From contig CAZSKP010000001.1 in assembly GCA_964607485.1 (NCBI GenBank), positions 64,001-128,000 on the forward strand: a stretch of 64,000 bases of DNA, in the 5' to 3' direction. Below are positions 2 to 13,184 of this stretch, piece by piece. A program made the position numbers and the translations under genes. The notes under the pieces are model-generated. The model saw nothing but the letters and a program-made list of their open reading frames with translations, had not been told where the DNA came from and made no database searches. This DNA is from an uncultured bacterium. Lineage in GTDB: Bacteria > Abyssobacteria > SURF-5. Positions within the stretch are counted from its first letter, which is position 1, and each line of letters starts with the position of its first letter.

Positions 2-619
2 GGTGTAATCAGGGACATGCTCGACCCGCAATTCGGGCTGGAATGTACGCCCGATACCATCAGGAAAGAGCTGGACTACATCGATGAAGCCGTGTTTCGC
101 GCCCGGGACATTACACAGAAACTGTTGAACTTTGTGCGGAAGACCGAACCGCGGCTGGTCCCGTGCAACATCAACCAGGTGCTGGAGGACATCATTGGCG
201 GCCTCAAAGAGCGTGAGTTGGAGGTTACCGGAATCAAAGTGGTTCGCGATCTCGACCCCGAGCTTCCCGACGTCATGCTCGACCCCGACCAGATGCGGCA
301 GGTGTTCCTGAACATCGTGAACAACGCGGGCGACGCCGTTGAGGGGCCCGGCACCATCACGCTCACTACACGGTGCAATGACAGCCACATCCGGGCCACC
401 GTCACCGATACGGGCAAGGGCATGACATCGGAACAGATGGAGAGGATATTCGACCCGTTCTTCACCACGAAAGAAGTCGGCAAAGGGACGGGCCTGGGCT
501 TGAGCATAAGCCTGAGCATCGTACAGTCGATGCACGGTGAGATAGAGGTTCAGAGCATGCCGGGGGCGGGAAGTTCGTTTACGGTAGTGCTCCCGCGATA
601 TCGAGCGGAGGAAAACTAA
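2..619 (+). CDS. Sensor histidine kinase, C-terminal HATPase part (5'-truncated by window edge)
   Basis: N box QVFLNIVNNAGDA, G1 DTGKGM, F box FDPFFTTK, G2 GTGLGL; frame is open to the window start. Confidence 0.95.
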   Translation, partial: GVIRDMLDPQFGLECTPDTIRKELDYIDEAVFRARDITQKLLNFVRKTEPRLVPCNINQVLEDIIGGLKERELEVTGIKVVRDLDPELPDVMLDPDQMRQVFLNIVNNAGDAVEGPGTITLTTRCNDSHIRATVTDTGKGMTSEQMERIFDPFFTTKEVGKGTGLGLSISLSIVQSMHGEIEVQSMPGAGSSFTVVLPRYRAEEN

Positions 620-620
620 C

Positions 621-2687
621 ATGTCGAACAGCGTTGCAACAAACCACATAGACGGCAGGGCAAGAGTGTTGCTCGTCGATGACGAGGATAAATTCAGGCA
701 GGCGATGAGACGGCAGCTCGAAGTCCGCGACTATAAGGTCTGGGACGTGAACAACGGCGAGGACGCCATCAAGATTGTCCGCCACAAGAATCCCGAGGTC
801 GTCATCCTCGACCAGCGCATGCCGAAGATGGACGGCATCCAGACCCTGCGCGAGATCAAGAAGATTCGGCCCGAGATGCAGGTGATCATGCTGACCGGCT
901 ATGGGAGCACCGAATCGGCGCGCGTGACGGGCAAGTACGACGTGTTTCATTACATGCAGAAACCGTGCGTGCTGGAAGAGCTGATCACGGTTATCGAGGC
1001 GGCCCGACAGGAACGGGTGTACGCCATGGCCCGGCACGAGATACCCGACGTCAAGCGGGGCACGCTCGGGCAGTGGCTTATCGGCGCGCACAACGCGAGG
1101 CCCGGCTTCATCATCCTGGGTTTCCTGCTGTTCGCCATCATACTCGCTGCGCCGCCGCCCAGGAAACTCGTGACGCTGCTCAGCACGGAGAAGGCCAGCG
1201 ACGCGGGCCAGAGCATTATGGGCTATGCCGAGTATCGCAAGATGAAACCCGGCCAGACGATATCCGACTATTACAGCGACAAGGAAGGCTGGACAAAGAA
1301 GGTCACGAAAGAAGACGGGACGTCCGCATCCGTTCCGCTGAGCCCGCGGCAGACTGCGTTTCGGGCGCGCGTCATGATCGGGACGCTGGTCGTCGCCGCG
1401 CTCTTTTGGGCCACGGGCGCGATGCCGGTGGGAGTGACCGCGCTCCTGGTCGGGATGTTGATGTATTTCCTCGGGGTCATGCCGCCCGACAAGGTGGCGG
1501 CCGCCTATGCGAAGGATTCGGTCGTGTTCATCTTCGGCGTGCTGGCGATTTCGGCCGCCATATCGAAAACCGGCCTCGACCGCCGCATCGGCCTGCTGCT
1601 ACTCGGCACGAGCACGTCGCTGGCCCGGCTGGCGTTCATCTTCTGCCCGCTCTTGGCGGTCTCCGCGTCGTTCCTGTCCGAGCACGCGCTGGTCGCGTTC
1701 ATCGCACCCATTTTCATTCTCGTATACAGCGGCGCCATTCGCGCGGCCAACATCACGAAGGACCGCAGCCTGGCCGTCATGATGATTCTCATGCTTTCAT
1801 TCGTGGCGAACGTGGGCGGACCGGGCTCTCCGGCCGCAGGCGGACGCAACGCGGTCATGCTCGGCATCCTCGCCGACTACGGTCTCGCGCCCACATTCGG
1901 ACGGTGGGTGATGTACGGACTGCCCTGCGTGCCGGTCATGGCGTTGGCCATCAGCTCGTACTTCTTCCTCGCGTTCCGGCGCAAAATCCAAATCAAGAAT
2001 CTTGACGTCGCCGCCGAGGTCAGGCGCGAGGCGCAGAAGATCGGCAAGATGACCCGCAACGAATATCGAACGGCCGCAGTTCTCGTGCTGCTGGTCGTGT
2101 TGTGGTCAACGGTCTCGAACCGTTTCGGCATGGGCGGACCAGTGCTCCTCTGCATCGTGCTGCTTAACATCCTCGGCATTCTTCGCTGGCGCGACATCAA
2201 CCATATTCACTGGGACGTCGTGGCGCTCTACGCGAGCGCGAGCGCGATGGGCGCCGGCCTTGCCGTCACGGGGGCCGCCCTCTGGATGGCCGACGCCTTC
2301 GTCAGCATCCTGCCCGGCTTCATGAAGAGCGGCGAGGGACTGTGCATCGCCACGAGCATATTCACCGGCGTCATCACCAATTTCATGAGCGATGGAGCCA
2401 CCGTCGCCGCCATCGGGCCGATTACCGTCCCCATGGCCGCCCTGTCTCAGACGCCGCCGCTGATGGTCGGCCTGGCCACGGCGTTCGCCTCGTCGTTCGC
2501 CTTCATGTTGATTATCGGGACTCCCAACAACGCGATCGCATACAGCATGGCCAGGGACCCGGAAACGGGCGAACAGCTCGTGACCGTCACGGACTTTCTC
2601 AAACACGGCGCGGTCGCGCTCGTGCTCTCGTTGGCCGTGCTGTGGATATGGGTGTTCTTCGGATACTGGCGATGGGTCGGCTTCTGA
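621..2687 (+). CDS. Receiver domain fused to an SLC13/DASS-family permease
   Basis: N-terminal REC (LLVDDE, ILDQRMP, LTGYG, QKP) followed by a long multi-TM region with DASS-like motifs (KTGLDRRI, IHWDVV, ASSFAFML..GTPNNAI). Confidence 0.9.
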   Translation: MSNSVATNHIDGRARVLLVDDEDKFRQAMRRQLEVRDYKVWDVNNGEDAIKIVRHKNPEVVILDQRMPKMDGIQTLREIKKIRPEMQVIMLTGYGSTESARVTGKYDVFHYMQKPCVLEELITVIEAARQERVYAMARHEIPDVKRGTLGQWLIGAHNARPGFIILGFLLFAIILAAPPPRKLVTLLSTEKASDAGQSIMGYAEYRKMKPGQTISDYYSDKEGWTKKVTKEDGTSASVPLSPRQTAFRARVMIGTLVVAALFWATGAMPVGVTALLVGMLMYFLGVMPPDKVAAAYAKDSVVFIFGVLAISAAISKTGLDRRIGLLLLGTSTSLARLAFIFCPLLAVSASFLSEHALVAFIAPIFILVYSGAIRAANITKDRSLAVMMILMLSFVANVGGPGSPAAGGRNAVMLGILADYGLAPTFGRWVMYGLPCVPVMALAISSYFFLAFRRKIQIKNLDVAAEVRREAQKIGKMTRNEYRTAAVLVLLVVLWSTVSNRFGMGGPVLLCIVLLNILGILRWRDINHIHWDVVALYASASAMGAGLAVTGAALWMADAFVSILPGFMKSGEGLCIATSIFTGVITNFMSDGATVAAIGPITVPMAALSQTPPLMVGLATAFASSFAFMLIIGTPNNAIAYSMARDPETGEQLVTVTDFLKHGAVALVLSLAVLWIWVFFGYWRWVGF

Positions 2688-2709
2688 GGAAGCTGGAGGA
2701 AATCGAACA

Positions 2710-3201
2710 ATGGCTAAAGAGAAGATCAACCTGTTGATTGTGGACGACGAGGAGCGGTTCCTCGAATCCACGAAGAAGAGGCTCGAAGTCAGGGATTTCA
2801 ACGTCATTGCCGTGAACAGGGGTGACAAGGCCATCGAGGCCGCGCGCAACCACCCCGTCGACGTTGCTCTGGTGGACCTCAAGATGCCCGGCATGAACGG
2901 AGAACAGACCCTGGAGGCGCTGAAGAAGGAGCACAAGTGGCTGGAGGTCGTCATCCTCACCGGCCACGGCTCCACCGAATCCGCCGTGGAATGCACGAAG
3001 AAGGGAGCGTACTTCTACCTGCAGAAACCCTGCGAACTCGAGCGGCTCCTCTCCGTGCTGACCGACGCCTACAAACGACGAGTCATGAACAAGATGACGA
3101 TCAAGCAGGATCGCATGGAGGAGATTCTCGGCATGGCCGACTCGGGGTCGCCGCTGGGAATCCTGCGCAGGATACGGGAACTGGACGAAGAAGGGGAATG
3201 A
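2710..3201 (+). CDS. Single-domain response regulator with ~40-aa C-terminal tail
   Basis: VDDE, LVDLKMP, LTGHG, QKP; SD GGAGGA upstream. Confidence 0.93.
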   Translation: MAKEKINLLIVDDEERFLESTKKRLEVRDFNVIAVNRGDKAIEAARNHPVDVALVDLKMPGMNGEQTLEALKKEHKWLEVVILTGHGSTESAVECTKKGAYFYLQKPCELERLLSVLTDAYKRRVMNKMTIKQDRMEEILGMADSGSPLGILRRIRELDEEGE

Positions 3202-3205
3202 CGCC

Positions 3206-4936
3206 GTGGAGGCGAGCAACTTCAAAATCACTCGGCGCATCATCCTGCGGCGAGTCCTTCTGGTGCCGTTCGTAACGATGACGCTCGTGTTCTGCACGCT
3301 GGTTTACTATTTCGCGACCGACCTCCGTTCCGCCGTCGAGGCGGAGCTGGTGCGCATCGCCGGCGCTCACCGCGACGTAATCGAACAATTTCTCCGCGAA
3401 CGGTGCCTCGACCTTCAATACGTTGGCGCCTCCTGTTCCTACGAAGAGATCGCCCGCGAGGACCGGCTTGAAGAGATTTTCGAAAACCTGCAGATGCGGT
3501 CGCCGGCGTTTTTCGACATCGGCGTCTTCGACGCGGACGGAAACCACGTCGCCTACGTCGGACCGTACGACCTTCGGGGCAAAAACTACGCGCAGGCCGA
3601 ATGGTTTCGGCAGTCCCAGACAAAGAGCCCCTACGTCTCCGACCTGTTCTACGGATACCGCAGCGTGCCCCATTTCGTCATCGCCGTACGCCGTGAGGAA
3701 GGCGGCCGCACGTGGTTCCTCCGGACGACCATCGACTGGTTCTTTTTCAATGATCTTGTCGGAAACATCCGTGTCGGAAAAACGGGCGAAGCATACCTGA
3801 TAAACCAGGAGGGTCAGTTCCAAACGCGCCGTCGCACGGGTGGCGACCTGATGGAGCCCGACCCTGACTATGCCGTTTATGAAATCGATGAGAACGATGT
3901 CTCCTACTTTACGGCGTCTGATTCGACGGGCGAGCGGCATCTGTATGCCACCGGCCGAATTCCTTCGACGGACTGGCTCCTGGTGGTTCGGCAGGAAGTC
4001 GGCGACGCCTACGCCTCGCTCATCCGCGCCGTCCTCATTGCCGTCGCCATGATCGTCGCCGGCGGAGCCGTGGCAGTCTTTATGGCTTTCATGCTCGCCT
4101 CCGGCGTCGCCAATCAGCTCACCGTGGCCGACCTGGAGAGACGCCGGATGGGCACACAGTTAATCATGGCGGGCAAGCTCGCCGAGATTGGCGAGATGAG
4201 CGCCGGAGTCGCACACGAGATGAACAACCCGCTCCAGGTAATAAAGGGGGAAGAGACGTACATCAAGGATATCTTGGACGATATGGAGACAAACGGGAGC
4301 GGAAACAATTCCGAGAATTTCCGGTTGCTTCGGGAATCTATTGACCAGATAGCGCTTCAGGTCGATAGGGGAAAGCAGATCACCGAAGGGCTGCTGGGGT
4401 TCGCGCGCAAGGCAGACACGAGGATCGAGCCAATCGAGCTGCGGTCATTGATACCCGACGTCGTCGGAATGATCGAGCGACGCGCTCAGGTGGAAAACAT
4501 CCGCATCGTTCAGGAATTCGAAGCAGACCTGCCCACGGTGCCCAGCGACCCCGTTCAGCTTCAGCAGGTATTCCTCAACCTGCTCAACAACGCGATTGAC
4601 GCGCTCAAGGAAAAGGGCGGAGGAGAGATTCGGATCACGGCGACGCAGGAGGCCGATGACCTGATGGTATCGGTTACGGACAACGGCTGCGGCATCCCGC
4701 CCGAGCACATGGAGAAGATATTCCTCCCCTTCTTCACCACGAAACCGGTGGGACAGGGCACGGGGCTGGGCTTGAGCACGTGTTACGGCATCGTGGAGCA
4801 CCTGGGTGGGCAGATCACGGTCGCGAGCGAGGTGAACGTGGGAACCGTCTTCACGATACGGCTTCCCCTGTCCGGCCCTCCCGAACAACGAGAACGCGAG
4901 CCGATGGGCCAGATGCAAGGAGGTTCGGCGAAGTGA
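3206..4936 (+). CDS. Membrane sensor histidine kinase with extracytoplasmic Cache-like domain
   Basis: TM-periplasmic-TM layout; H box AHEMNNPL; N/G1/F/G2 boxes. Confidence 0.93.
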   Translation: MEASNFKITRRIILRRVLLVPFVTMTLVFCTLVYYFATDLRSAVEAELVRIAGAHRDVIEQFLRERCLDLQYVGASCSYEEIAREDRLEEIFENLQMRSPAFFDIGVFDADGNHVAYVGPYDLRGKNYAQAEWFRQSQTKSPYVSDLFYGYRSVPHFVIAVRREEGGRTWFLRTTIDWFFFNDLVGNIRVGKTGEAYLINQEGQFQTRRRTGGDLMEPDPDYAVYEIDENDVSYFTASDSTGERHLYATGRIPSTDWLLVVRQEVGDAYASLIRAVLIAVAMIVAGGAVAVFMAFMLASGVANQLTVADLERRRMGTQLIMAGKLAEIGEMSAGVAHEMNNPLQVIKGEETYIKDILDDMETNGSGNNSENFRLLRESIDQIALQVDRGKQITEGLLGFARKADTRIEPIELRSLIPDVVGMIERRAQVENIRIVQEFEADLPTVPSDPVQLQQVFLNLLNNAIDALKEKGGGEIRITATQEADDLMVSVTDNGCGIPPEHMEKIFLPFFTTKPVGQGTGLGLSTCYGIVEHLGGQITVASEVNVGTVFTIRLPLSGPPEQREREPMGQMQGGSAK

Positions 4937-5385
4937 ATGCCATCAATCTGCTCATTGTGGACGACGAAGAACGGCTTCTGGCAACTCATAAGAAGCTCCT
5001 GGACAAGCGCGGGCTAAACACGGCCACGTGTACCAACGGGCTCGATGCGCTGAAGATTCTGAAAGAGCAGCCCATCGACGTCGTGCTCCTCGACGTGAAA
5101 ATGCCCGGAATGGACGGCATGGAGGTCCTGCGCCGAATCAAGCAGGATGCGTCCGGAGTCGAGGTGATTCTGATCACGGGAAATCTGTCCGTCGAATCGG
5201 AGGTCGCGGGGTTGCAGGAGGGAGCGTTCGGCTATTTGAAGAAGCCGGTCACCATTACGGAAATTCAGAAAAAGGTGGAAGAGGCCTTCGTTCACAGGCA
5301 GGCGCGGTCGGGAAACGTCCGTGAAACCGCGCTCCAAGCGACCGACTCAGACCGAGGGCTTCCGCGCACAGAAGAAGGAAACTAG
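4933..5385 (+). CDS. Single-domain response regulator
   Basis: GTG start overlaps upstream TGA (GTGA); VDDE, LLDVKMP, KKP. Confidence 0.92.
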   Translation: MNAINLLIVDDEERLLATHKKLLDKRGLNTATCTNGLDALKILKEQPIDVVLLDVKMPGMDGMEVLRRIKQDASGVEVILITGNLSVESEVAGLQEGAFGYLKKPVTITEIQKKVEEAFVHRQARSGNVRETALQATDSDRGLPRTEEGN

Positions 5386-5406
5386 GAACGGGGGAGTAAG
5401 GGACAC

Positions 5407-7140
5407 ATGGAAACCGCCGATTTCAAAGGCACCCGGATGATGATTCTCAGCAGGGTTCTGCTGGTTCCATTCGTGGCGGTCATGCTCGTGTTCGGCACGC
5501 TCGTCTATTACTTCGCCACCAATCTTCGGAGCCAGGTGGAGGAAAGACTTGCGTACGTCGCCGACGGACACCGCCAGATTATCGAACAGTTTCTGCATGA
5601 ACGATGTTCCGACCTTGAATACGCCGCGAGTTCGCACAGCTTCGAGGAACTCAGCGGTGCCCGACGCCTGGCCGAAGTCTTTGAAGCATTGCAGACGCGG
5701 ACGCAGGCGTTCTTTGACCTGGGACTCTTTGACGCTCAGGGCAACCATGTCGCCTACGTCGGGCCGTATGACCTGAAAGGCAAGAACTATGCACAGGCGG
5801 AGTGGTTTCTCCAGGTTCGGGAAAAGGGACAATACATCTCCGACGTGTTTCTCGGCTATCGCAATATTCCCCACTTCGTCATCGCGGTTCGTCGTGAAGA
5901 ATCCAGCCGCGTCTGGTACCTCCGCGCGACGATAGACACGCTTTTCTTCAACGATCTGGTTGAAAACATCCGCATTGGAAAGACGGGAGAGGCCTACCTT
6001 GTGAACCGTGGGGGAGTGTTCCAGACGCCGAGGCGTTCCGGAGGAGCGTTGATGGGGATCGACCCGGATTACGGCGTTTACCAGGTCCACGAAGGCGCCG
6101 TCGCCTCCTTTGCGGCCGATGACGACGCCGGCTCTCGACATCTCTACGCCACGTGCCGTCTCGCATCCACCGGATGGCTTCTGGTGGTGCGTCAGGAAAT
6201 CGGCGAGGCCTACGCGCCTCTCGTTCGCGCCGTGTTTCTCGCAATCGCAATAATCCTAGCGGGAGGCGTGGTGGTGGTCACGATGGGCTTCCTGCTCGCC
6301 ACCGGCGTCACGAATCAACTGAGCGCCGCCGACATGGAGAGACGCCGAATGGGAAGCCAGTTGATCATTGCGGGCAAGCTCGCCGAGGTCGGCGAGATGA
6401 GCGCCGGACTGGCGCACGAGATCAACAATCCCCTCCAGGTGATGAAATCGGAGGAGGCGCTCGCCGTAGAGATTCTGGACGAAATGAAGGCGAACGGCAA
6501 TCCCGGCCAGGCCGAAAATATCCAGATGGTCCGGGATTGCATAACCCGAATGGGCGGTCAGATTGACCGATGCAAGAGGATAACCCTGGGGCTCCTGAAG
6601 TTTGCCCGCGAATCCGAAGCGGCCATCCAGCAGATAGACCTGAAGCCATTCATGCGAGAGGTCGTCGCGATGGTGGAGCGCAGGGCCGCCGTCGAGAATA
6701 TACACCTTCTGCAGGAATTCGCCCCGGACCTGCCTCGATTTCAGAGCGACCCGGCTCAACTGCAACAGGTGTTCCTCAATCTGCTCAACAACGCCATTGA
6801 CGCGCTTGCCGACAAGAATGAAGGCGAGATACGGGTCACAGCGTCCCGTGGCGATGATGAGGTGGTCATATCGGTGGCGGACAATGGCTGCGGCATCGCC
6901 CCCGAACATATGGAAAAGATATTTCTGCCGTTCTTCACTACGAAACCGGTCGGGCGGGGAACGGGGCTGGGGCTGAGCACGTGTTACGGCATCGTGACGC
7001 GCCTCGGCGGAAGGATTACCGTGAGCAGCGAACCGAATGCGGGGTCGGTTTTCACCCTGCACTTTCCGCTCAGCGATCCTTCCGAGCAGTCCAAAGCGTG
7101 GCTGCCCGCCCGCGAACGAGGACAAGGAGGAGCAACATGA
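5407..7140 (+). CDS. Membrane sensor histidine kinase (paralog of 3206-4936)
   Basis: H box AHEINNPL; shared segments with the upstream kinase such as NHVAYVGPYDLxGKNYAQAEWF. Confidence 0.93.
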   Translation: METADFKGTRMMILSRVLLVPFVAVMLVFGTLVYYFATNLRSQVEERLAYVADGHRQIIEQFLHERCSDLEYAASSHSFEELSGARRLAEVFEALQTRTQAFFDLGLFDAQGNHVAYVGPYDLKGKNYAQAEWFLQVREKGQYISDVFLGYRNIPHFVIAVRREESSRVWYLRATIDTLFFNDLVENIRIGKTGEAYLVNRGGVFQTPRRSGGALMGIDPDYGVYQVHEGAVASFAADDDAGSRHLYATCRLASTGWLLVVRQEIGEAYAPLVRAVFLAIAIILAGGVVVVTMGFLLATGVTNQLSAADMERRRMGSQLIIAGKLAEVGEMSAGLAHEINNPLQVMKSEEALAVEILDEMKANGNPGQAENIQMVRDCITRMGGQIDRCKRITLGLLKFARESEAAIQQIDLKPFMREVVAMVERRAAVENIHLLQEFAPDLPRFQSDPAQLQQVFLNLLNNAIDALADKNEGEIRVTASRGDDEVVISVADNGCGIAPEHMEKIFLPFFTTKPVGRGTGLGLSTCYGIVTRLGGRITVSSEPNAGSVFTLHFPLSDPSEQSKAWLPARERGQGGAT

Positions 7141-7589
7141 GCGCATTGCATTTGCTGCTGGTGGATGATGAGGAGCAGTTCCTGTCCACAACCAAGAAGC
7201 TCCTGGAGAAACGCGGCGTCGACACGATCACCTGCACGAACGGGTTCGACGCGTTGGAGATTCTCCGGAAGCGTCGCATCGACGTGGTGGTTCTCGACAT
7301 CAAGATGCCGGGGATCGACGGGATCGACGTGTTGACCAGGATCAAGCGCGATCATCCCGTCGTCGAAGTCATCCTGCTCACCGGCCATGCGTCCGTGGAA
7401 TCGGCGGTGGAGGGGCTGAAACTGGGCGCCTTCGACTACTTGACGAAACCGTCCAAGGTTTCGGAGATCATGGCCAAGGTGGAGGAGGCCTTCGAGAGGA
7501 AAAAGGCCAAGGAGGAGAAGGCCCGGAAGACCAAATTCGACAACATCATCCGTCATCCCATGGCCGTGTATGAAAAAGACGAGGAGTGA
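7137..7589 (+). CDS. Single-domain response regulator with charged C-terminal helix
   Basis: ATGA overlap with kinase stop; SD AGGAGGAG; VDDE, VLDIKMP, LTGH, TKP. Confidence 0.93.
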   Translation: MSALHLLLVDDEEQFLSTTKKLLEKRGVDTITCTNGFDALEILRKRRIDVVVLDIKMPGIDGIDVLTRIKRDHPVVEVILLTGHASVESAVEGLKLGAFDYLTKPSKVSEIMAKVEEAFERKKAKEEKARKTKFDNIIRHPMAVYEKDEE

Positions 7590-7623
7590 CCCTGGTCCGT
7601 GTGGCGCCATCGGAGTGTAACCA

Positions 7624-9471
7624 ATGACCACAGAGAAGCGAAAAGCGACAGGTTACGATAAGTACATCGATTGGAAAATCTTCGTCATTCCCGTGCTGCT
7701 GCTGTTTGCGATCATGTACGCGCCGGCCACCGACGGCATGCGTGATGTGGGAACCGAGTACGGCGTCGGTCCGCAAAAGGTCATCGACTATCTTTCCGAG
7801 CAGATGTTCAAGAGACCGACCGCCGACCTCGACCAGTGGCAGTTGTTGACATGTCGGATCATCGAACAGTCGATGCGCGGCGGCGCGATGGGCCGCGCCA
7901 GGTTCCTGAAACGCGACGAGAAGTGGTGCAGGAGCAACGGCATTCCCGTGGACTCGACGAACCTCGCGCGCGCCAAGGAGTTTGTCGGCGGCATGGATGA
8001 CGACTCGTACCGGGAGCTTCTGATGTCGGCGGCGAAGCTGCGCACCGAGGAGCTGCATTATGAAGGACTCTCCGGGGCCGACCGCAAGCTCGCCGACAAA
8101 GCCACGTGGAAGCTGAAGGTAGCGCTGGCCGTGACGGTGTTCACGGTATTCTGCTTCGTGAGCGGATGCATACCGCTGCCCGCCGTGGCGTTCTGCATCG
8201 GGTTGGCGTTTACGTTCACCGGCGTCGTCTCACGCACCGAGGTGGCGGCGTTCTACTGGAGCGACGCGGTCTGGTTCATCATGGGCAGCCTGATGTTCGC
8301 CTCCGCGTTCGTCAAGACGGGGGTGGACCGCCGCATATGCCTCATGCTGTTCAGCAAGCTGGCCCGGCCGAGCGTCGCGGCCATCACGCTCGTAATGATT
8401 ACCGTCATAGCTCCCGCCGCCTCGTTCATCTCCGACCACGCGCTTGCGGCCATCTTTCTCCCAATCGCCATCATCCTGCATCGCGGCAGTCAGGTGGAGG
8501 GCAACCCTACCGACTTGGAGCTCGGGAAAATGCTCGTGATCACCGTGGCGATGGCATGCAACATCGGCGGCTTCGGCGCGCCGAGCGGCGGGGCTCGCAA
8601 TGTGATCATGATGACCTACCTCGAGGACATGTTCGGGATGGACATCGGGTATTTCACGTGGATGACGTATGCCATGCCGTTCGTGCTCGTCATGATGCCG
8701 CTCACGTGGCTCGCCATCCAATGGCGGTTCAAGCCTGCCACGCGCGACCTCTCCACCGCGATGAGATTCCTCAAAGACGACATCACTCGAATGGGAAGGT
8801 GGAGCCGGCAGCAGGTCGTCACGCTGATTATCTTCGCGGTAATGGTGTGGTTCTGGTTCACCGAGAAATCATTCTTCGATATCGGCATCTATCCCGTCCG
8901 CCTCGGCATCGGCGTGGTTGCCGTGGCCGGGGGAGTCGCATACATCCTGGCTGGTGTGGTCAACTGGCGCGACTATCAAGAAAAGGTTGACTGGGGCGTC
9001 GTATGGCTTTATGCGGGGGCTATCATTTTCGGCAAGGTCCTCGACGAAACGGGCGCCGCCTACTTCATCGCCCGAACGGCCGTGAACGGGCTCGCTCACT
9101 TCGGCATCGCCGCCGGCATTCCGCTCATCGCGATGGCGAGCGTGCTAACCGGATGCATCACGCAGATCATGGCCGACGGACCGGCAGCGGCCGCCGTCGG
9201 GCCAATTACGCTGAATATGGCGGGCATCGTTCATCCGGGCACGGTCATGCTTCCGTTCATGACCATGGCCACCGCCGCGGCTTCGAGCTTCGCCTACTGC
9301 CTGGTCATCGGCACTCCGCCCAATGCGATCGTGTACGCAAGCGGATACCTCGAGCCGAAGGATTACCTCCGGGTCGGTATCCCGGTGTGGTTTCTGTCGA
9401 ACATCGTGCTCTTCCTGTTGGTTGGAGTGTATTGGATGGCCCGGGGATTCGGCGGACTGCCGGGTTTTTAG
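7624..9471 (+). CDS. SLC13/DASS-family permease with a large soluble loop after the first TM
   Basis: KTGVDRRI, VDWGVV, ASSFAYCL..GTPPNAIVYASG, multiple TMs. Confidence 0.9.
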   Translation: MTTEKRKATGYDKYIDWKIFVIPVLLLFAIMYAPATDGMRDVGTEYGVGPQKVIDYLSEQMFKRPTADLDQWQLLTCRIIEQSMRGGAMGRARFLKRDEKWCRSNGIPVDSTNLARAKEFVGGMDDDSYRELLMSAAKLRTEELHYEGLSGADRKLADKATWKLKVALAVTVFTVFCFVSGCIPLPAVAFCIGLAFTFTGVVSRTEVAAFYWSDAVWFIMGSLMFASAFVKTGVDRRICLMLFSKLARPSVAAITLVMITVIAPAASFISDHALAAIFLPIAIILHRGSQVEGNPTDLELGKMLVITVAMACNIGGFGAPSGGARNVIMMTYLEDMFGMDIGYFTWMTYAMPFVLVMMPLTWLAIQWRFKPATRDLSTAMRFLKDDITRMGRWSRQQVVTLIIFAVMVWFWFTEKSFFDIGIYPVRLGIGVVAVAGGVAYILAGVVNWRDYQEKVDWGVVWLYAGAIIFGKVLDETGAAYFIARTAVNGLAHFGIAAGIPLIAMASVLTGCITQIMADGPAAAAVGPITLNMAGIVHPGTVMLPFMTMATAAASSFAYCLVIGTPPNAIVYASGYLEPKDYLRVGIPVWFLSNIVLFLLVGVYWMARGFGGLPGF

Positions 9472-9488
9472 AAAGGGAGGAACCGTTT

Positions 9489-10427
9489 GTGGATAAGGCC
9501 GATGCCATAAGGGTCCTGATCGTTGACGACGAAGAGCGCTTTCGCGCCAACACCGCCGCCATCCTCAATCGGCGCGGCTTTGTAGCGACGGCCGTCGGCA
9601 GCGGGATCGAAGCAATACAGGAGATCAAGAAGCAGCCGTTCGACGTCGTCATCCTCGACGTGAAGATGCCGGGCATGGACGGACACGAGGCGCTGCGCGA
9701 GATCAAGAAAATCCGGCCGGAGCTCGAGGTGATCATGCTCACGGGCCACGGCACGCTCACCTCGGCGCTTGTCAGTCTGCGCGGCGGCGTGTTCGACTAT
9801 CTCGCCAAGCCGTGCGACATCGATGTCCTTGCCGCGAAGGTCCGCAGCGCTTATGCGAAGGAAAAAGGATTGGCGGAAGTGGAGCGTCGCGCGAGAGACA
9901 TCATGGTGCCGCTCTCCTCGTTCAGCGCCGTCCACGACGACCAGACCGTGGCCGGGGCGATTCAGGTGATTCTTCGTTCGTTCAAGACGATCATGAGCAC
10001 GGCGACAGTGCACGAGACGGTGCACCGTTCCACGCTCATACTCGACAGGAACGACAACGTCATCGGCGTGCTCAGTTTTGCCGACCTCCTGCAAGGCCTG
10101 CAGCCCGTCTATATGCGGCTCCTCAAGGAGCGGCCGCCGCTGGCCGACTCTTTGCACCTGGAACCGTTCAGCTATTCAGGAATGTTTACGATTATGGTGC
10201 GCGACCTGGCCAACAAGCGGGTCCGCGACCTGATGTCAGAGGCGCCTCCCGATATCGACGCCGACGCGAACCTGATGGAGGCTGCAAGCCGGCTGTTGGT
10301 GCTGAGAGTGCCGCGGATGCTGGTCATCGAGGGCGGGAAGACAATCGGCGTTCTTCGGGAACAGGACCTCTTCTTCGAGATAGCGAGGATCGTAGGGGAG
10401 CGTGAGGGGGAAGAGAGGGACTCATAG
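9489..10427 (+). CDS. Response regulator with C-terminal CBS domain pair
   Basis: SD GGGAGG then GTG; REC motifs; CBS motifs ARDIMVP, IGVLSFADLL, VRDLMSE, IGVLREQDLF. Confidence 0.9.
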   Translation: MDKADAIRVLIVDDEERFRANTAAILNRRGFVATAVGSGIEAIQEIKKQPFDVVILDVKMPGMDGHEALREIKKIRPELEVIMLTGHGTLTSALVSLRGGVFDYLAKPCDIDVLAAKVRSAYAKEKGLAEVERRARDIMVPLSSFSAVHDDQTVAGAIQVILRSFKTIMSTATVHETVHRSTLILDRNDNVIGVLSFADLLQGLQPVYMRLLKERPPLADSLHLEPFSYSGMFTIMVRDLANKRVRDLMSEAPPDIDADANLMEAASRLLVLRVPRMLVIEGGKTIGVLREQDLFFEIARIVGEREGEERDS

Positions 10428-10498
10428 AAACCACGAACATGAATGGAAGTTCCGTCGACGCCCGGGGCGCCGAAGATTTCGAAAGGAGTGAGAACGCC

Positions 10499-10936
10499 AT
10501 GAGCAAGCAAAAGAACATCCGCGTACTGATCGTGGACGACGAGGAGCGCTTCCGCACGACGGCAACGGCCACGCTCGCAAAGCGCGGTTTCGATGTCAAG
10601 GCGGTGGAGGGCGGAGCCGAGGCGCTCGAAGAGATACGGAAGGATGCGGTCGATGTCGTGGTGCTCGACGTCAAGATGCCCGGCATGGATGGAAACGAGG
10701 CCCTCCGAGAGATGAAGATACTCCGGCCGGACCTCGAGGTGATCATGCTCACCGGTCACGGCACCGTGGACTCGGCCCTCGAAGGATGGCGTGACGAGGC
10801 GTTCGCGTACCTCACAAAGCCGTATGACATGGAATTGCTCGCGGAGAAGATTCGCGACGCATACGGCAAGAAGAAGGGACTGGACGGGACAGTGTGGTAC
10901 TCCGTATGGTCTAAGGACCAGCCTCCCGGACATTGA
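10499..10936 (+). CDS. Single-domain response regulator (CBS-less paralog of flanking REC-CBS genes)
   Basis: SD AGGAG; VDDE, VLDVKMP, LTGHG, TKP. Confidence 0.92.
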   Translation: MSKQKNIRVLIVDDEERFRTTATATLAKRGFDVKAVEGGAEALEEIRKDAVDVVVLDVKMPGMDGNEALREMKILRPDLEVIMLTGHGTVDSALEGWRDEAFAYLTKPYDMELLAEKIRDAYGKKKGLDGTVWYSVWSKDQPPGH

Positions 10937-10990
10937 CCACGCGTCGCCGGCCCGGAAGAGCGGCGGATTGTCCTTATTGGAGCATCGGAC

Positions 10991-11932
10991 ATGGAAAAGG
11001 ACGAAACAGTTCACGTTCTCGTCGTAGACGATGAGGACCGTTTCCGGATCACCACTACGGTCAGCCTCAAGAGGCGCGGGTTTGCCGTCAGAGCCGTGGC
11101 TGGCGGCGACGAAGCCATCGAGGAAGTGAAGAAGGGCGACGTGGATGTCGTAATTCTCGACGTGAAGATGCCCGGCATTGACGGGCACGAGACCCTGCGG
11201 GAGATACGGCGCCTCAGGCCGGGTATTCAGGTGATAATGCTGACCGGATATGGGTCGGTCGGTTCGGCGCTGGAGGGCTGGCACGAGGGAGTGTTTGCGT
11301 ATCTGACGAAGCCGTCGAGCATCGATTTCCTTGCAGAGAGAATCAGGGAGGCGTACGCGAAGAAGAAGGGCGCCCCATGTGAGGAGCGCCGAGTGAAGGA
11401 CATCATGGAGCCGCTGTCGGCGTTCATCAGCACGGTTCGCCGGGACCAGTCGGTAGCCGAAGCCATTCAGGAGATGCACCGTTTCTTTGCACACACCATT
11501 GCGGCCACGAAACGCAAAGAAGCCCTGCTCCGTTCTCTGTTAGTCACGGATGAGCGGAGCAGGGTCATCGGTGTGATCGGTCTCACCGACCTCCTGCGCG
11601 GACTGCAGCCGTCCTGCATGCGGTTGCCCGACGACCGGCCGGCCGCGGCGGATACGACGTACCTCGACCCGTCGAGCTGCCTGGGAAACTTTGCCACGAT
11701 GGTCCGCGGCCTGGCCACGAAGAAGGTCGGGGAACTGATGTCGGAGAGGCCCGCTACCATCGACGCCAATGCCGGTCTCATAGAAGCCACGAACCGGCTC
11801 TTATCGCTCAGGGTCCATAGTCTGTTGGTGATGGATGACGGCGAGGCGGTGGGAGTGGTCAGGGACAAGGACCTGTTTCTGGAAATGGCGAACATCGTGA
11901 GAGAGCGTCCTGCGGAGGCCGGGGCCTCATGA
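10991..11932 (+). CDS. Response regulator with C-terminal CBS domain pair
   Basis: REC motifs; VKDIME, IGVIGLTDLL, VGELMSE, VGVVRDKDLF. Confidence 0.9.
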   Translation: MEKDETVHVLVVDDEDRFRITTTVSLKRRGFAVRAVAGGDEAIEEVKKGDVDVVILDVKMPGIDGHETLREIRRLRPGIQVIMLTGYGSVGSALEGWHEGVFAYLTKPSSIDFLAERIREAYAKKKGAPCEERRVKDIMEPLSAFISTVRRDQSVAEAIQEMHRFFAHTIAATKRKEALLRSLLVTDERSRVIGVIGLTDLLRGLQPSCMRLPDDRPAAADTTYLDPSSCLGNFATMVRGLATKKVGELMSERPATIDANAGLIEATNRLLSLRVHSLLVMDDGEAVGVVRDKDLFLEMANIVRERPAEAGAS

Positions 11933-12017
11933 TGAACCACGGACGCCTCAGGCTCGACCGGCATGGCGTGTCCGACCGTTTCTTGATCGGCCTTTGGCCA
12001 AGAGAGAGGAGCCAACC

Positions 12018-12707
12018 ATGAAAGCGCCGGCGTTCAACAACAAGACCTACCAGGTGGATGCGGGTGGGTTTCTGACGGACCCCGAGCAATGGGACGAGGA
12101 TTTTGCGGCTAGGCTCGCGCCGGAATTAGGAATTCCCCACGGACTGACGGAAGAGCACTGGAAAGTCATCCGCTTCATCCGGGGGACGTATGAGCGAGAA
12201 GGGAGATGCCCGCTGATATTCACGACCTGCAGGGCCAACGACCTTCACCTCAAGGACTTGCAGAAGCTCTTTCCCGCCGGGTACTTGCGAGGGGCCTGCA
12301 AGCTCGCGGGCATCACGTATAAGGAGGCGTGCTTCGCTCCGGGCCTCGTTTCGATAGGAGACCGGACCGCCGCTCCACGAGCCGCCGAGGAGGGCCGCCG
12401 CGCCGTTCCTCCCGTGGCCGAGAAGACCTATACGATAGACACGCAGGGATTCCTCGTGAATCCCGACGACTGGGACCAGCGGTTTGCGCTGCTCAAAGCG
12501 TACGAGATGGGGATTTTGGAGACATTCTCGAACAGGCATTGGGAAGTCATCTACTTCATTCGCGACAGCTATGACGAGAACGGTGTCGTCCCGACGGTGT
12601 ACGAAACCTGCGAGGCAAACAACCTGGACATCGAGAGTCTCGAAAAACTCTTCCCTCACGGGTATCACCGCGGCGCGATCAAGATGGCCGGTCTGAGGGT
12701 CCGATAG
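12018..12707 (+). CDS. Tandem (two-domain) DsrC/TusE-family sulfur-relay-like protein
   Basis: Two copies of DxxGFLxxPxxW...HWxVIxFIRxxY...LxKLFPxGYxRGAxKxAG; SD GAGGAG. Confidence 0.88.
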   Translation: MKAPAFNNKTYQVDAGGFLTDPEQWDEDFAARLAPELGIPHGLTEEHWKVIRFIRGTYEREGRCPLIFTTCRANDLHLKDLQKLFPAGYLRGACKLAGITYKEACFAPGLVSIGDRTAAPRAAEEGRRAVPPVAEKTYTIDTQGFLVNPDDWDQRFALLKAYEMGILETFSNRHWEVIYFIRDSYDENGVVPTVYETCEANNLDIESLEKLFPHGYHRGAIKMAGLRVR

Positions 12708-12785
12708 ATGATGCCGTTCCGGGTTCGCGGAACAGAGGGCAGCTTGTCTTCGGAGACATGGAGACAGGAAGGAGGAAGAGTGCAA

Positions 12786-13184
12786 ATGAACGCCCGCAAA
12801 TCCGTGCTTTTCGTCGATGACAACAAGGAGTTTCGAAAAGCGATGAGAAAAGTGTTCGAGAGGTCAGGCTACGCATTCACAGAGGCCTGCGACGGGCTGG
12901 AGGCGCTTGCTCTCCTTTCGCAGAACAGGTTCGACCTCATCCTTTCCGACCTCAGGATGCCTAACCTGGACGGAATGGGACTGATGGAGGAGCTCAGCAG
13001 GCAGGAGCTGGACGTGCCCGTTATCTTCATCACGGCATACGGAGACGTCGAGTCGTACTTGGAGCTGATGAACATGGGCGCTTACGACTACCTTAACAAG
13101 CCCTTCGGCACGGAGGAGATTCTCAGCGTCGTCGGAAGCGCACTCGATACACACAGAACTCCGCTCCACAGCCCGAGCCGCTGA
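12786..13184 (+). CDS. Single-domain response regulator
   Basis: FVDDN, LSDLRMP, ITAYG, NKP. Confidence 0.92.
   Translation: MNARKSVLFVDDNKEFRKAMRKVFERSGYAFTEACDGLEALALLSQNRFDLILSDLRMPNLDGMGLMEELSRQELDVPVIFITAYGDVESYLELMNMGAYDYLNKPFGTEEILSVVGSALDTHRTPLHSPSR

What the first reader, a model, noticed from the sequence alone, without database searches (positions are those of the whole stretch)
2..13184. Candidate novel system: output-less multi-receiver phosphorelay built around two DASS-like transporters, CBS sensors and a DsrC-like protein
Seen in sequence: 13 co-oriented, closely spaced genes with 3 histidine kinases and 8 receiver domains. All receivers keep the acidic pair, phospho-Asp, Thr and Lys. 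None in the window carries an HTH, AAA+ or enzymatic output. The only effector-like parts are a transporter covalently fused to a receiver, a second transporter, two CBS pairs and a tandem DsrC. Established: CBS pairs bind adenylates, DsrC/TusE proteins carry sulfur via cysteines, and DASS proteins move di-anions including sulfate. Inference: the cluster is a post-translational controller that integrates an external ligand (Cache kinases), energy charge (CBS) and sulfur/redox state (DsrC) to gate anion uptake. The 5' part of the operon lies outside the window. Related neighbourhoods may already be present in sulfate-reducer genomes; I cannot check whether they have been described.
Basis: partly seen in the sequence, partly recalled or inferred. 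Interest (0 to 1): 0.85.

Follow-up and report, generated by a model that had tools for sequence, protein, structure and literature searches.

The report
Sigma-54-controlled kinase, receiver and anion-carrier cluster
This is a real, large cluster of sensor kinases, output-less receiver proteins and two anion carriers (one fused to a receiver), but the same kind of cluster is already in print for sulfate reducers, and its missing DNA-binding regulator is most likely encoded elsewhere in the genome.

Summary
The window carries 13 co-oriented genes: 3 dCache histidine kinases, 8 intact receivers, a receiver-DASS fusion, a second DASS carrier, two receiver-CBS proteins and a tandem DsrC-like protein. 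None has a DNA-binding or enzymatic output.

The unit is larger than described. Five more co-oriented genes lie upstream: receiver-CBS, acetyl-CoA synthetase, a monocarboxylate carrier, an ADP-forming acyl-CoA synthetase and a CoA-transferase/GNAT fusion.

"Output-less" is true only locally. In 7 of 13 informative related loci, a 4-helix-bundle kinase and an NtrC-type sigma-54 activator sit directly upstream of the first kinase. Here that pair lies on another contig (C37). A 38-bp palindromic site occurs only 4 times in the genome. Each copy is followed by a sigma-54-type promoter. The copies lie before the first kinase, before receiver-CBS/acs (shared with a divergent [FeFe]-hydrogenase operon), after the C37 activator gene, and at one further locus.

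The tandem DsrC is not a conserved member. In two same-family genomes it lies in the hydrogenase operon.

A 2025 paper describes DASS/two-component/CBS clusters in 26 sulfate reducers and proposes nearly the same model. This scan has met the receiver-DASS fusion five times before. Direct gating of transport by phosphorylation remains untested.

The parts
2..619 (+). 3' part of dCache histidine kinase g1. The whole gene is G000:C1:62829-64619, 596 aa.
   Evidence: Pfam HATPase_c 5.3e-27. The full-length protein has dCache_1, HisKA and HATPase_c (protein 14). The H-box AHEINNPL is visible.
621..2687 (+). Receiver fused to a DASS-fold carrier (g2, 688 aa)
   Evidence: Response_reg 2.2e-26 and Na_sulph_symp 4.4e-38. 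In the family search, 2085 proteins reached E<=1e-3 among 8000 scored, and the best 120 all carry REC+DASS at 673-694 aa. In a 17-sequence alignment D20 D21 D64 T92 K114 are invariant, as are SEH 353-355 and SDG 590-592.
2710..3201 (+). Single-domain receiver g3, always next to the fusion
   Evidence: Response_reg 2.6e-26. A g3-type receiver lies directly downstream of REC-DASS in 11 of 11 informative loci.
3206..4936 (+). dCache histidine kinase g4
   Evidence: dCache_1, HisKA and HATPase_c. It is 64% identical to g6.
4933..5385 (+). Single-domain receiver g5. Its start overlaps the g4 stop by 4 bases.
   Evidence: Response_reg 3.5e-30. It is 57% identical to g7.
5407..7140 (+). dCache histidine kinase g6
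   Evidence: dCache_1 8.8e-17 and HATPase_c 1.5e-30.
7137..7589 (+). Single-domain receiver g7 (ATGA overlap with g6)
   Evidence: Response_reg 5.5e-32.
7624..9471 (+). DASS-fold carrier g8 with a 165-aa N-terminal extension
   Evidence: Na_sulph_symp 9.3e-49. NCBIfam TIGR00785 scores 217.5 bits against a cut-off of 198.6. In the alignment to VcINDY, the two SNT motifs are replaced by SDH and ADG.
9489..10427 (+). Receiver-CBS protein g9 (312 aa)
   Evidence: Response_reg and CBS. The AlphaFold2 model shows a receiver plus two CBS units, mean pLDDT 78. Fold matches include a CBS-pair protein with AMP, 4gqy_D.
10439..10936 (+). Single-domain receiver g10, of the same receiver subfamily as the REC-CBS proteins
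   Evidence: Response_reg 2.9e-28. It is 54-59% identical to the receivers of u1, g9 and g11.
10991..11932 (+). Receiver-CBS protein g11
   Evidence: Response_reg 7.3e-27 and CBS 2.7e-16 in two stretches.
12018..12707 (+). Tandem DsrC-like protein g12 (229 aa). It is an accessory here, not a conserved member of the cluster.
   Evidence: DsrC 5.8e-45 in two stretches. The model has two DsrC folds (TM 0.90, normalised to the target, against 2v4j_C) joined by a disordered linker at 104-132. The family search gave 882 proteins at E<=1e-3 among 1224 candidates.
12708..13184 (+). Single-domain receiver g13. It belongs to the subfamily that follows the NtrC gene on C37 and in one relative. The true start may be the Met at 12786.
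   Evidence: Response_reg 3e-31. It is 52-54% identical to the C37, L004 and L006 receivers, against 26-31% to the other receivers of the cluster.

Best explanation
The region is one copy of a conserved, sigma-54-controlled sensing and uptake locus. It is of the 'DASS carrier + Cache kinases + output-less receivers + CBS proteins' kind already described in sulfate reducers. It most likely works on two levels.

Level 1 is transcription. This level is inferred from conserved DNA sites and synteny. An NtrC-type activator with its own 4-helix-bundle kinase is encoded on contig C37 in this genome and directly upstream in most relatives. It binds a roughly 40-bp palindrome (CTGTCAGGATTcTTTACA-N4-TGTAAAgATTTCCGTCAG). 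From there it fires sigma-54 promoters in front of four targets: the kinase/REC-DASS cluster; the REC-CBS/acetyl-CoA synthetase unit together with the divergent [FeFe]-hydrogenase operon; its own downstream receiver; and one further locus.

Level 2 is protein activity. This level is inferred only. Each of the three periplasmic dCache kinases phosphorylates the receiver(s) encoded next to it. These receivers have no output domain, and one is covalently joined to a DASS carrier. The signal therefore most likely changes carrier activity or the kinases' own signalling through protein contacts. The CBS pairs would add an adenylate or metabolite input.

The substrate is not established. It could be sulfate, as proposed in print, or an organic acid, as the co-regulated acs, monocarboxylate-carrier and CoA-transferase genes suggest. 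The tandem DsrC-like gene is a lineage-specific passenger that normally belongs to the neighbouring hydrogenase/GAF-kinase unit.
For: Inventory.

Conserved core: the g1-type kinase lies directly upstream of REC-DASS in 9 of 9 informative loci, and the g3-type receiver directly downstream in 11 of 11. REC-DASS is present in 8 of 11 genomes of the phylum. One relative (L120) has the order 4HB-kinase, NtrC, g1, g2, g3, g6, g7, g8, g9, g10, g11.

NtrC pair: it is adjacent in 7 of 13 distinct informative loci. One relative (L125) has u3-u4-u5-4HB kinase-NtrC-g1-g2-g3. The own orthologue is at C37:479-3360, 64% and 78% identical, with domains confirmed.

Upstream site: it occurs 4 times in 4.7 Mb at up to 6 mismatches, and 0 times in the reversed and in the shuffled genome. 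Each copy is followed 121-133 bases later by a GG-N10-GC promoter. Background is 0.59 such matches per kb on both strands, so about 0.065 are expected per 220-base one-strand stretch. The same site plus promoter stands upstream of the g1-type kinase, or of the g13-type receiver that precedes it, in 6 of 6 relatives' loci examined. It also stands in the REC-CBS/hyd divergent region of a relative. In the own genome one site lies 129.5 and 128.5 bases from two divergent promoters. rpoN is present.

Function names: u2 passes the acetate-CoA ligase equivalog cut-off, and u3 passes the SfMCT monocarboxylate carrier cut-off. All kinase cores resemble AtoS best. Six of the nine receivers resemble AtoC best, and the other three rank it second to seventh behind other receivers.

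Receiver on the carrier: D20 D21 D64 T92 K114 are invariant in 17 of 17 family members.

Print: PMC11887813 section 14. Passages of PMC5840216 cite Tarpgaard 2017 that DASS genes HRM2_38230 and HRM2_38300 are highly expressed below 100 uM sulfate.
Against: No experiment exists. No RNA data were examined, so promoters, operon limits and the regulon are predictions. The activator was assigned to the palindrome by position and synteny only. The genome has at least 10 NtrC-type paralogues.

Contig C37 belongs to a binned assembly with 2.57% estimated contamination, so its membership in the same cell is not proven.

In 6 of 13 informative loci no NtrC pair is adjacent. One of these is an Acidobacteriota locus whose upstream region shows a TTGACA hexamer rather than a sigma-54-type promoter, by eye.

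Nothing shows that the dCache kinases talk to the carriers rather than to the NtrC protein.

Homology of this cluster to the published Desulfosarcina genes was not tested directly. Only the composition and the presence of 67-78% identical REC-DASS proteins in Desulfobacteraceae-labelled records support it.

The carrier hairpin tips lack the SNT motifs of characterised DASS proteins, so even anion transport is an assumption.
Confidence: 0.6

Rival explanations
1. The cluster is a self-contained, output-less post-translational controller. It integrates an external ligand (Cache kinases), energy charge (CBS) and sulfur/redox state (tandem DsrC) to gate anion uptake, with no transcriptional arm.
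For: No DNA-binding domain occurs in any of the 18 co-oriented genes. The receiver is covalently fused to a carrier and its phospho-acceptor residues are invariant. REC-CBS and REC-DASS lie on contigs of identical length in at least 10 cases across several phyla, as read from the contig-length columns. One family member fuses CBS to the tandem DsrC (P0087).
Against: The NtrC pair is adjacent in 7 of 13 informative loci, and the conserved palindrome plus sigma-54 promoters stand in front of the cluster here. DsrC2 is absent from all 12 REC-DASS loci and from all 8 related-genome loci. Its home in two same-family genomes is the hydrogenase operon. The cysteine that defines DsrC sulfur carriers is kept in only 4 of 16 tandem family members and is never C-terminal.
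Confidence: 0.15
2. Sink or co-sensor model. The single-domain receivers and the receiver on the carrier do not gate transport. They serve as phosphate sinks or connectors that tune kinase signalling into the NtrC activator. The DASS proteins serve as co-sensors that report flux to the kinases, as DctA and DcuB do for DctB and DcuS.
For: All kinase cores are of one type (AtoS-like), including the 4HB kinase. Six of the nine receivers match AtoC best and the other three match other receivers first, so cross-phosphorylation is conceivable. The g13-type receiver follows the NtrC gene on C37 and in L004/L127, under the palindrome and the sigma-54 promoter. That arrangement is the layout of a feedback sink. 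That dCache kinase + NtrC-type regulator + carrier co-sensing is an established design (DctB/DctD/DctA) is recalled, not taken from any call.
Against: There is no direct evidence. The exact 688-aa length and 67-85% identity of the fusion across phyla suggest that the joined receiver constrains the carrier itself. Three REC-CBS paralogues are hard to explain as simple sinks.
Confidence: 0.2
3. The published reading. This is a sulfate-uptake regulon of a sulfate reducer. The Cache kinases sense external sulfate, the DASS proteins import sulfate, and the CBS proteins sense APS/ATP.
For: PMC11887813 section 14. Passages of PMC5840216 on DASS expression at low sulfate in Desulfobacterium autotrophicum. 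aprA is present at 913 bits. DsrC with DsrMK-like genes lies on C34. A sulfatase lies directly downstream. SLC13A1, a sulfate carrier, is among the PDB matches.
Against: dsrA and dsrB were not found above their cut-offs in a 97.5% complete assembly. REC-DASS and REC-CBS relatives carry source names of Planctomycetota, Poribacteria, Hydrogenedentota and Acidobacteriota, which are not known sulfate reducers (the physiology is recalled). The units that share the palindrome encode acetate and monocarboxylate activation and a hydrogenase. The best PDB match is the dicarboxylate carrier VcINDY. The substrate-site motifs differ from both.
Confidence: 0.3

Closest known systems
DASS-type 'sulfate transporter' gene cluster of Desulfosarcina variabilis 3be13 and 25 other sulfate reducers (PMC11887813, Sci Adv 2025; section 14 and the Fig. 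5 legend were read)
   Same: Same composition: DASS carriers, several Cache-domain kinases, response regulators and CBS-domain proteins in one large cluster. Same proposed logic: external sensing plus a CBS-mediated internal level.
   Different: The paper calls the regulators 'WalR type' and draws them acting on promoters. Here all 9 receivers lack any DNA-binding domain. The paper does not mention a receiver-carrier fusion, sigma-54, an NtrC-type activator or a DsrC-like gene in the text I read; its figures and the supplement figures S21-S23 could not be seen. Direct sequence homology to the Dvar genes was not tested. This genome shows no dsrAB.
DctB/DctD/DctA C4-dicarboxylate system of rhizobia (recalled, not from a call)
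   Same: A periplasmic double-Cache kinase, an NtrC-type sigma-54 activator with an upstream activating site, and a carrier gene as the target. The carrier also feeds back on sensing.
   Different: In that system the Cache kinase phosphorylates the NtrC-type regulator itself. Here the NtrC protein has its own 4HB kinase, and the three Cache kinases are paired with receivers that have no output domain. The carrier is DASS, not DAACS.
AtoS/AtoC short-chain fatty acid system of E. coli
   Same: It is the best NCBIfam match for all four kinase cores and for 6 of the 9 receivers (second to seventh for the other three), and the second-best match for the C37 activator. Both are sigma-54-dependent. 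Both are linked to acyl-CoA metabolism (here acs, an ADP-forming acyl-CoA synthetase and a CoA-transferase).
   Different: All scores are far below the equivalog cut-offs (for example 207 bits against 646). The sensor domains differ. There are no ato genes.
PHO90, the yeast low-affinity phosphate carrier with an N-terminal SPX domain (PDB 8r33)
   Same: A DASS-fold carrier with a cytoplasmic regulatory domain fused to its N-terminus. The g8-family profile (alignment A3, which does not include the REC-DASS fusion g2) matches it at E 4.8e-34.
   Different: The regulatory domain is SPX, which senses inositol pyrophosphate (recalled), not a two-component receiver. It is eukaryotic.
VcINDY and other solved DASS/SLC13 carriers (4f35, 7jsk, 8w6h)
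   Same: Same fold family. Profile E-values are 8.5e-69 to 1e-51. The GTPPNAI-type motif is kept.
   Different: Both SNT hairpin-tip motifs are replaced: SDH/ADG in g8 and SEH/SDG in g2. The g2 pair is invariant in 17 of 17 family members. There is an extra N-terminal membrane segment and a hydrophilic stretch.
DsrC/TusE/RspA family
   Same: Both halves of g12 have the DsrC fold. It passes the TIGR03342 subfamily cut-off, 112.9 bits against 53.5. The first half keeps the Cys that aligns with CysB, and in this protein also a Cys 11 residues later.
   Different: It has two domains in one chain. There is no cysteine on a free C-terminal arm. The second half has neither cysteine. The CysA-like residue is kept in only 4 of 16 tandem family members.

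Membership tests
Two-component system (histidine kinase + receiver) | HisKA H-box and HATPase_c in the kinases; the acidic pair, phospho-Asp, Thr/Ser and Lys in the receivers | tested here: met
   Pfam. H-boxes are visible. The alignment of all 9 receivers is.
Multi-step phosphorelay (His-Asp-His-Asp) | An Hpt domain or protein, or a hybrid kinase with its own receiver | tested here: not met
   No Hpt family was found in any of the 18 co-oriented proteins at E<=0.01 (window genes) or E<=0.001 (upstream genes). No kinase carries a receiver.
Sigma-54-dependent promoter with an enhancer-binding protein | GG-N10-GC element at -24/-12, an upstream activator site about 100-150 bases away, rpoN and an NtrC-type AAA+ activator in the genome | tested here: met
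   Promoter-like elements and the palindrome. rpoN. The activator with Sigma54_activat and HTH_8. This is sequence evidence only. Transcript starts were not tested.
DASS / SLC13 carriers (TC 2.A.47) | A family profile match above the curated cut-off | tested here: met
   Pfam PF00939 gives 131.9 bits for g2 and 167.1 bits for g8, against a cut-off of 27. NCBIfam TIGR00785 gives 217.5 bits for g8 (passes 198.6) and 171.9 bits for g2 (below the cut-off).
DASS / SLC13 carriers (TC 2.A.47) | Two Ser-Asn-Thr motifs at the hairpin tips, which bind Na+ and substrate in VcINDY (their role is recalled) | tested here: not met
   The HMMER alignment to VcINDY puts g8 SDH and ADG at the two SNT positions. 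g2 has SEH and SDG, invariant in 17 of 17 sequences.
DsrC proper (sulfur-carrying subunit of dissimilatory sulfite reductase) | Two cysteines on a flexible C-terminal arm, the last one penultimate in the chain | tested here: not met
   The first repeat has two cysteines with the right spacing, but they are followed by a linker and a second domain. The second repeat ends ...GAIKMAGLRVR and has neither cysteine. A separate true DsrC ending ...PKPTGCV lies on C34.
CBS pair (Bateman module) | Two consecutive CBS units forming one module | tested here: met
   g11 has two Pfam stretches. For g9 only one stretch is above threshold, but the model shows two beta-alpha-beta-beta-alpha units and matches CBS-pair structures 4gqy_D and 4noc_A. 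Ligand binding was not tested.
Published DASS/TCS/CBS cluster of sulfate reducers (PMC11887813) | DASS carriers together with Cache kinases, response regulators and CBS proteins in one cluster; orthology to Dvar_38230-38430 | tested here: inconclusive
   The composition is met. A search of the one supplement file held found none of the terms.

The most novel reading that the evidence does not exclude
The receiver-DASS fusion and its satellite receivers form a two-component pathway whose output is carrier activity itself. A periplasmic Cache kinase would switch a membrane carrier on or off by phosphorylating a receiver built into it. A separate sigma-54/NtrC layer, sharing one palindromic enhancer with an [FeFe]-hydrogenase and acetate-activation genes, would set how much of the machinery is made. 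The invariant SEH/SDG hairpin tips in place of SNT would then mark a DASS subclass with a different substrate or coupling ion from any characterised member.
Probability: 0.3. Interest if true: 0.7.

Novelty: new member of a known kind. Interest (0 to 1): 0.4.

Why it matters
If phosphorylation of a built-in receiver really gates a carrier, it would be a direct route from a two-component sensor to transport without gene expression. That would be a rarely documented kind of output for this most common bacterial signalling system. The family is large and highly conserved: the top 120 of 2085 hits are 67-85% identical across several phyla. One experiment would therefore explain many genomes. For this window the practical lessons are more modest. 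The apparent lack of a DNA-binding output comes from a local rearrangement. The predicted regulon links hydrogen metabolism, acetate activation and anion uptake under one enhancer. The substrate, usually written as sulfate, is not established.

Tried and rejected
1. Complex prediction of DASS g8 (alignment A3) with REC-CBS g9 (alignment A4) returned 'no answer', score 0.01 in both runs. It counts neither for nor against binding.

2. My first two sigma-54 scans had an indexing error for the -12 GC and found nothing. They were replaced.

3. One search failed because one typed ORF range contained stop codons. That range was dropped.

4. Rfam at gathering thresholds on L003 7000-20000, which covers the leaders of u1, u2, u3 and g1, gave no match.

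5. I tested the idea that g12 and g13 form an obligate, translationally coupled pair and rejected it. g13-type receivers occur at the cluster end (L006) or after NtrC (C37, L004) without any DsrC2. The g13 start may also be 78 bases further downstream.

6. I looked for a DsrC2 remnant between hydA and the GAF kinase of this genome. Only the receiver is there, 78% identical to the relative's; DsrC2 scored E 2.5.

7. I looked for a consistent partner of the tandem DsrC family in 80 metagenome loci and found none. The 53 close same-strand neighbours fall into 38 BLAST groups, the largest with 4 members. Pfam on 35 representatives gave SelD-like/cysteine desulfurase, NtrC, a double receiver, GAF kinase, DASS, Acs, hydrogenase maturation proteins, Rrf2, GNAT and others.

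8. Literature searches for the fusion itself found no paper on receiver-DASS or receiver-CBS proteins other than PMC11887813. PMC5840216 holds none of the words 'histidine kinase', 'two-component', 'CBS', 'receiver' or 'regulator'.

9. The supplement search of PMC11887813 found none of the terms in the one file held. Figures S21-S23 were not seen and may show domain details that bear on the comparison.

10. No notes existed for this genome in the scan's index. A word search for the tandem DsrC combination found nothing.

Full report
WHAT IS THERE. Thirteen co-oriented + strand genes lie between window positions 2 and 13184. They are three dCache/HisKA/HATPase kinases (g1 partial, g4, g6), eight receiver domains, one receiver fused to a DASS-fold carrier (g2), a second DASS carrier (g8), two receiver-CBS proteins (g9, g11) and a protein with two DsrC repeats (g12). 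Every receiver scores E<=2.6e-26. An alignment shows the acidic pair, the phospho-Asp, the Thr and the Lys in all of them. The kinases keep the H-box. No HTH, AAA+ or enzymatic domain appears at E<=0.01. The one exception is a sub-threshold LexA_DNA_bind hit in the second DsrC repeat. There is also no Hpt domain and no hybrid kinase, so this is a set of two-component pairs, not a phosphorelay in the strict sense. Downstream genes (BrkB-like, sulfatase) are on the other strand, so the cluster ends at 13184.

THE UNIT IS LARGER. The window is G000:C1:64001-128000. Five more co-oriented genes lie in the 20 kb that end inside the window (L003). They are a third receiver-CBS protein (u1), acetyl-CoA synthetase (u2, passes the NCBIfam equivalog cut-off), an MFS carrier (u3), an ADP-forming acyl-CoA synthetase-like protein (u4) and a CoA-transferase fused to a Pat-like GNAT domain (u5). 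The MFS carrier passes the cut-off of the SfMCT L-lactate/monocarboxylate carrier model, 442.8 bits against 320. No DNA-binding regulator lies upstream. The set diverges from an [FeFe]-hydrogenase operon, hydC-hydB(NuoF+GltD-like)-hydA, followed by a receiver and a GAF kinase.

CONSERVATION. With the REC-DASS fusion as bait, the genome collection gave 12 true relatives at 62-83% identity. In these loci the g1-type kinase is directly upstream in 9 of 9 informative cases, and a g3-type receiver is directly downstream in 11 of 11. Further kinase-receiver pairs are common. A g8-type carrier was seen in two of these loci (L010, L015 partial), with REC-CBS beside it in L010. The tandem DsrC was seen in none.

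In the window's own phylum only 11 species genomes are held. REC-DASS is found in 8 of them. One genome (locus L120) has almost the same order as here (g1, g2, g3, g6, g7, g8, g9, g10, g11) but without DsrC2. Three of the genome-collection loci are the same contigs as three of these loci and are counted once.

In the large protein collections the fusion is a big, tightly conserved family. 2085 proteins reached E<=1e-3 among 8000 scored, and the best 120 all carry REC+DASS at 673-694 aa and 67-85% identity. Their source names include Abyssubacteria, Hydrogenedentota, Planctomycetota, Poribacteria, Thermodesulfobacteriota and Pseudomonadota. REC-CBS is equally widespread: 3301 hits among 7446 candidates, with all of the top 120 carrying REC+CBS. 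The module is therefore conserved, and it is not confined to sulfate reducers.

THE MISSING OUTPUT. In 7 of 13 distinct informative loci (L004=L127, L005=L122, L007, L011, L120, L121, L125), a kinase with a 4-helix-bundle sensor and an NtrC-type activator (REC-AAA+-HTH_8) lie directly upstream of the g1-type kinase. The 6 loci without the adjacent pair are L006=L123, L008 (which has a divergent pair nearby), L010, L012, L014 and this genome. One relative (L125) reads u3-u4-u5-4HB kinase-NtrC-g1-g2-g3. That is the order found here with the pair inserted exactly at our 236-base u5-g1 gap.

In this genome the orthologues are on contig C37 (479-3360). They are 64% and 78% identical, against 46% for the next NtrC paralogue, and their domains are confirmed. 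They are followed by a g13-type receiver and an acyl-CoA synthetase alpha-like gene.

A SHARED ENHANCER. The regions upstream of u1 and of g1 share a 38-base stretch, identical at 33 of 38 positions (read from the sites printed). A search of the whole 4.7-Mb assembly for this pattern at up to 6 mismatches finds 4 copies. The reversed genome and a locally shuffled genome each give none. The copies lie before u1, before g1, immediately after the NtrC gene on C37, and before a 202-aa unknown gene on C3.

The site is an imperfect palindrome, CTGTCAGGATTcTTTACA-N4-TGTAAAgATTTCCGTCAG. Each copy is followed 121-133 bases later by a GG-N10-GC element: CGGCACGGAATTTGCC, CGGCATATCTCTTGCT, TGGAATGCCTCTTGCT and CGGCACAGTATTTGCT. 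Such elements occur at 0.59 per kb counting both strands, so about 0.065 would be expected by chance in each 220-base one-strand stretch.

The same palindrome and promoter stand upstream of the g1-type kinase, or of the g13-type receiver that precedes it in L127, in all 6 relatives' loci examined. They also stand in the divergent REC-CBS/hydrogenase region of a relative.

In this genome the u1 copy lies 129.5 and 128.5 bases from the -12 ends of two divergent promoters. One faces REC-CBS/acs and the other faces hydC. rpoN is present.

I infer that the C37 activator is the transcriptional output of the system. I also infer that its regulon joins the hydrogenase, the acetate/monocarboxylate activation genes and the kinase/receiver/carrier cluster. 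This rests on position, synteny and motif conservation only. No RNA or binding data were examined. C37 comes from a binned assembly with 2.57% estimated contamination.

THE RECEIVERS. By sequence they fall into groups. The groups are {u1, g9, g10, g11} at 50-59% identity, {g5, g7} at 57%, g2 alone, g3 alone, and {g13, the C37 receiver, the L004 receiver, the last L006 receiver} at 52-59%. So g10 is a REC-CBS-type receiver without CBS, and g13 belongs to the kind that follows the NtrC gene. All kinase cores match AtoS best; six of the nine receivers match AtoC best and the other three rank it second to seventh. All scores are far below the equivalog cut-offs. The g9 model shows a receiver followed by two CBS units (pLDDT 78). 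Fold matches are to isolated receivers and to CBS pairs such as CBSX2 with AMP. No solved receiver-CBS protein appeared.

THE CARRIERS. The profile of the g8 family matches VcINDY best (8.5e-69). Next come NaCT, the sulfate carrier SLC13A1, NaDC and, further down, the SPX-fused phosphate carrier PHO90. In the residue-by-residue alignment to VcINDY, the two SNT motifs at the hairpin tips are replaced by SDH and ADG in g8. The corresponding SEH and SDG of g2 are invariant in 17 of 17 family members. So are the receiver's D20 D21 D64 T92 K114. The receiver is thus under selection as a phospho-acceptor. The substrate site differs from every characterised DASS protein that I could compare. Sulfate, a carboxylate or something else all remain open.

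THE TANDEM DsrC. g12 belongs to a large, unstudied family of about 217-229-aa proteins (882 hits at E<=1e-3 among 1224 candidates). They are annotated only as 'TusE/DsrC/DsvC family'. Both halves model as DsrC folds (TM 0.90, normalised to the target, against 2v4j_C) joined by a disordered linker.

The first half keeps the CysB-equivalent. The CysA-equivalent is present in only 4 of 16 tandem members, g12 among them, and is never at a free C-terminus. The second half has neither cysteine. A canonical DsrC lies on C34 next to DsrMK-like genes.

In two genomes of the same family the tandem gene lies between hydA (plus a receiver) and the GAF kinase. In one of them it is split over two frames. 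In this genome that slot holds only the receiver, and the gene sits 22 kb away at the end of the kinase cluster.

In 80 metagenome loci its neighbours are heterogeneous. DASS carriers lie downstream of it in 3 of these loci (directly adjacent in one, one gene away in two), Acs lies within the flank in 8, and kinases or NtrC-type genes occur in several. SelD-like and cysteine desulfurase genes occur in 4. One member carries an N-terminal CBS domain (P0087). A named Abyssubacteria contig holds DsrC2, REC-DASS and REC-CBS within about 20 locus tags.

I read g12 as a loosely associated accessory, not a core part. Its role is unknown.

WHAT IS IN PRINT. PMC11887813 (Sci Adv 2025; I read section 14 and the Fig. 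5 legend) reports a 30.5-kb cluster in Desulfosarcina variabilis with DASS-type 'sulfate transporters', numerous two-component systems and CBS-domain proteins. It finds related clusters in 26 sulfate-reducing species. Its model has Cache kinases sensing external sulfate and CBS proteins adding an intracellular (APS/ATP/energy) level through protein contacts.

The text that I read does not mention a receiver-carrier fusion, sigma-54, an NtrC-type activator or DsrC-like genes. It calls the regulators 'WalR type'. Its figures and supplement figures were not visible to me.

Passages of PMC5840216 cite Tarpgaard 2017 that two DASS genes of Desulfobacterium autotrophicum (HRM2_38230, HRM2_38300) are highly expressed below 100 uM sulfate.

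Against a purely dissimilatory-sulfate reading here, aprA is present, but dsrA and dsrB were not found above their cut-offs in a 97.5% complete assembly.

The scan's own notes list the receiver-DASS fusion in five other genomes, with the same reading and the same paper.

VERDICT. The cluster is real and conserved, and the receivers have no output domains. It is not a new kind of system, it is not without a transcriptional arm, and the DsrC link is weak. What remains of interest is the untested idea that a two-component signal switches a carrier directly. Also of interest is the prediction made here that one sigma-54 enhancer ties hydrogenase, acetate activation and the carrier cluster together.

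Noticed in passing
G000:C8:27500-35000 (locus L019 5500-13500): A smaller paralogous cluster holds a receiver, a dCache kinase, a receiver, a 224-aa unknown, a receiver, a DASS carrier, a phosphate-selective-type porin and an FHA protein. It diverges from fatty-acid beta-oxidation genes. It has no copy of the palindrome.
   Followed up: partly
L003 2012-7459, minus strand (G000:C1:48012-53459), just upstream of the window: An [FeFe]-hydrogenase operon has a 1032-aa subunit that fuses NuoF-like and GltD/NfnB-like domains. It is followed by a receiver and a GAF kinase. Its predicted sigma-54 promoter shares the palindromic enhancer with the REC-CBS/acs unit.
   Followed up: partly
L030 about 10130-10810 (G010:C6): In a related genome the tandem DsrC gene is split. 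Its two halves are in different reading frames, which points to a frameshift or a sequencing error.
   Followed up: no
L006 5518-7731, minus strand: In a close relative the u5-g1 gap is 3 kb. It holds a D5_N primase-like ORF on the other strand, which suggests a mobile-element insertion at the spot where other relatives carry the 4HB kinase/NtrC pair.
   Followed up: no
L003 14700-16592 (G000:C1:60700-62592): A single 630-aa protein joins an acetyl-CoA hydrolase/transferase (butyryl-CoA:acetate CoA-transferase-like) to a Pat-like GNAT acetyltransferase. It lies next to acetyl-CoA synthetase genes. Pat enzymes are known to acetylate Acs (recalled).
   Followed up: no
metagenome loci L064, L107, L108, L109: The tandem DsrC gene lies directly beside selenophosphate-synthetase-like (AIRS) and cysteine desulfurase genes. 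In one locus these two are fused into a 733-aa protein. This hints at a sulfur or selenium trafficking role in some lineages.
   Followed up: no
whole genome G000: aprA is present (C70, 913 bits), and a canonical DsrC lies beside DsrMK-like genes (C34). No dsrA or dsrB was found above the family cut-offs in a 97.5% complete assembly.
   Followed up: partly
window 13218-17008, minus strand: A BrkB/YihY-family membrane protein and a 786-aa sulfatase converge on the end of the cluster.
   Followed up: no
G000:C3:150816 (locus L021 4817-5677): The fourth copy of the palindrome plus sigma-54-type promoter stands before a 202-aa protein with no Pfam family. It lies upstream of acetone-carboxylase-like, acyl-CoA ligase and methylmalonyl-CoA mutase genes.
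   Followed up: no
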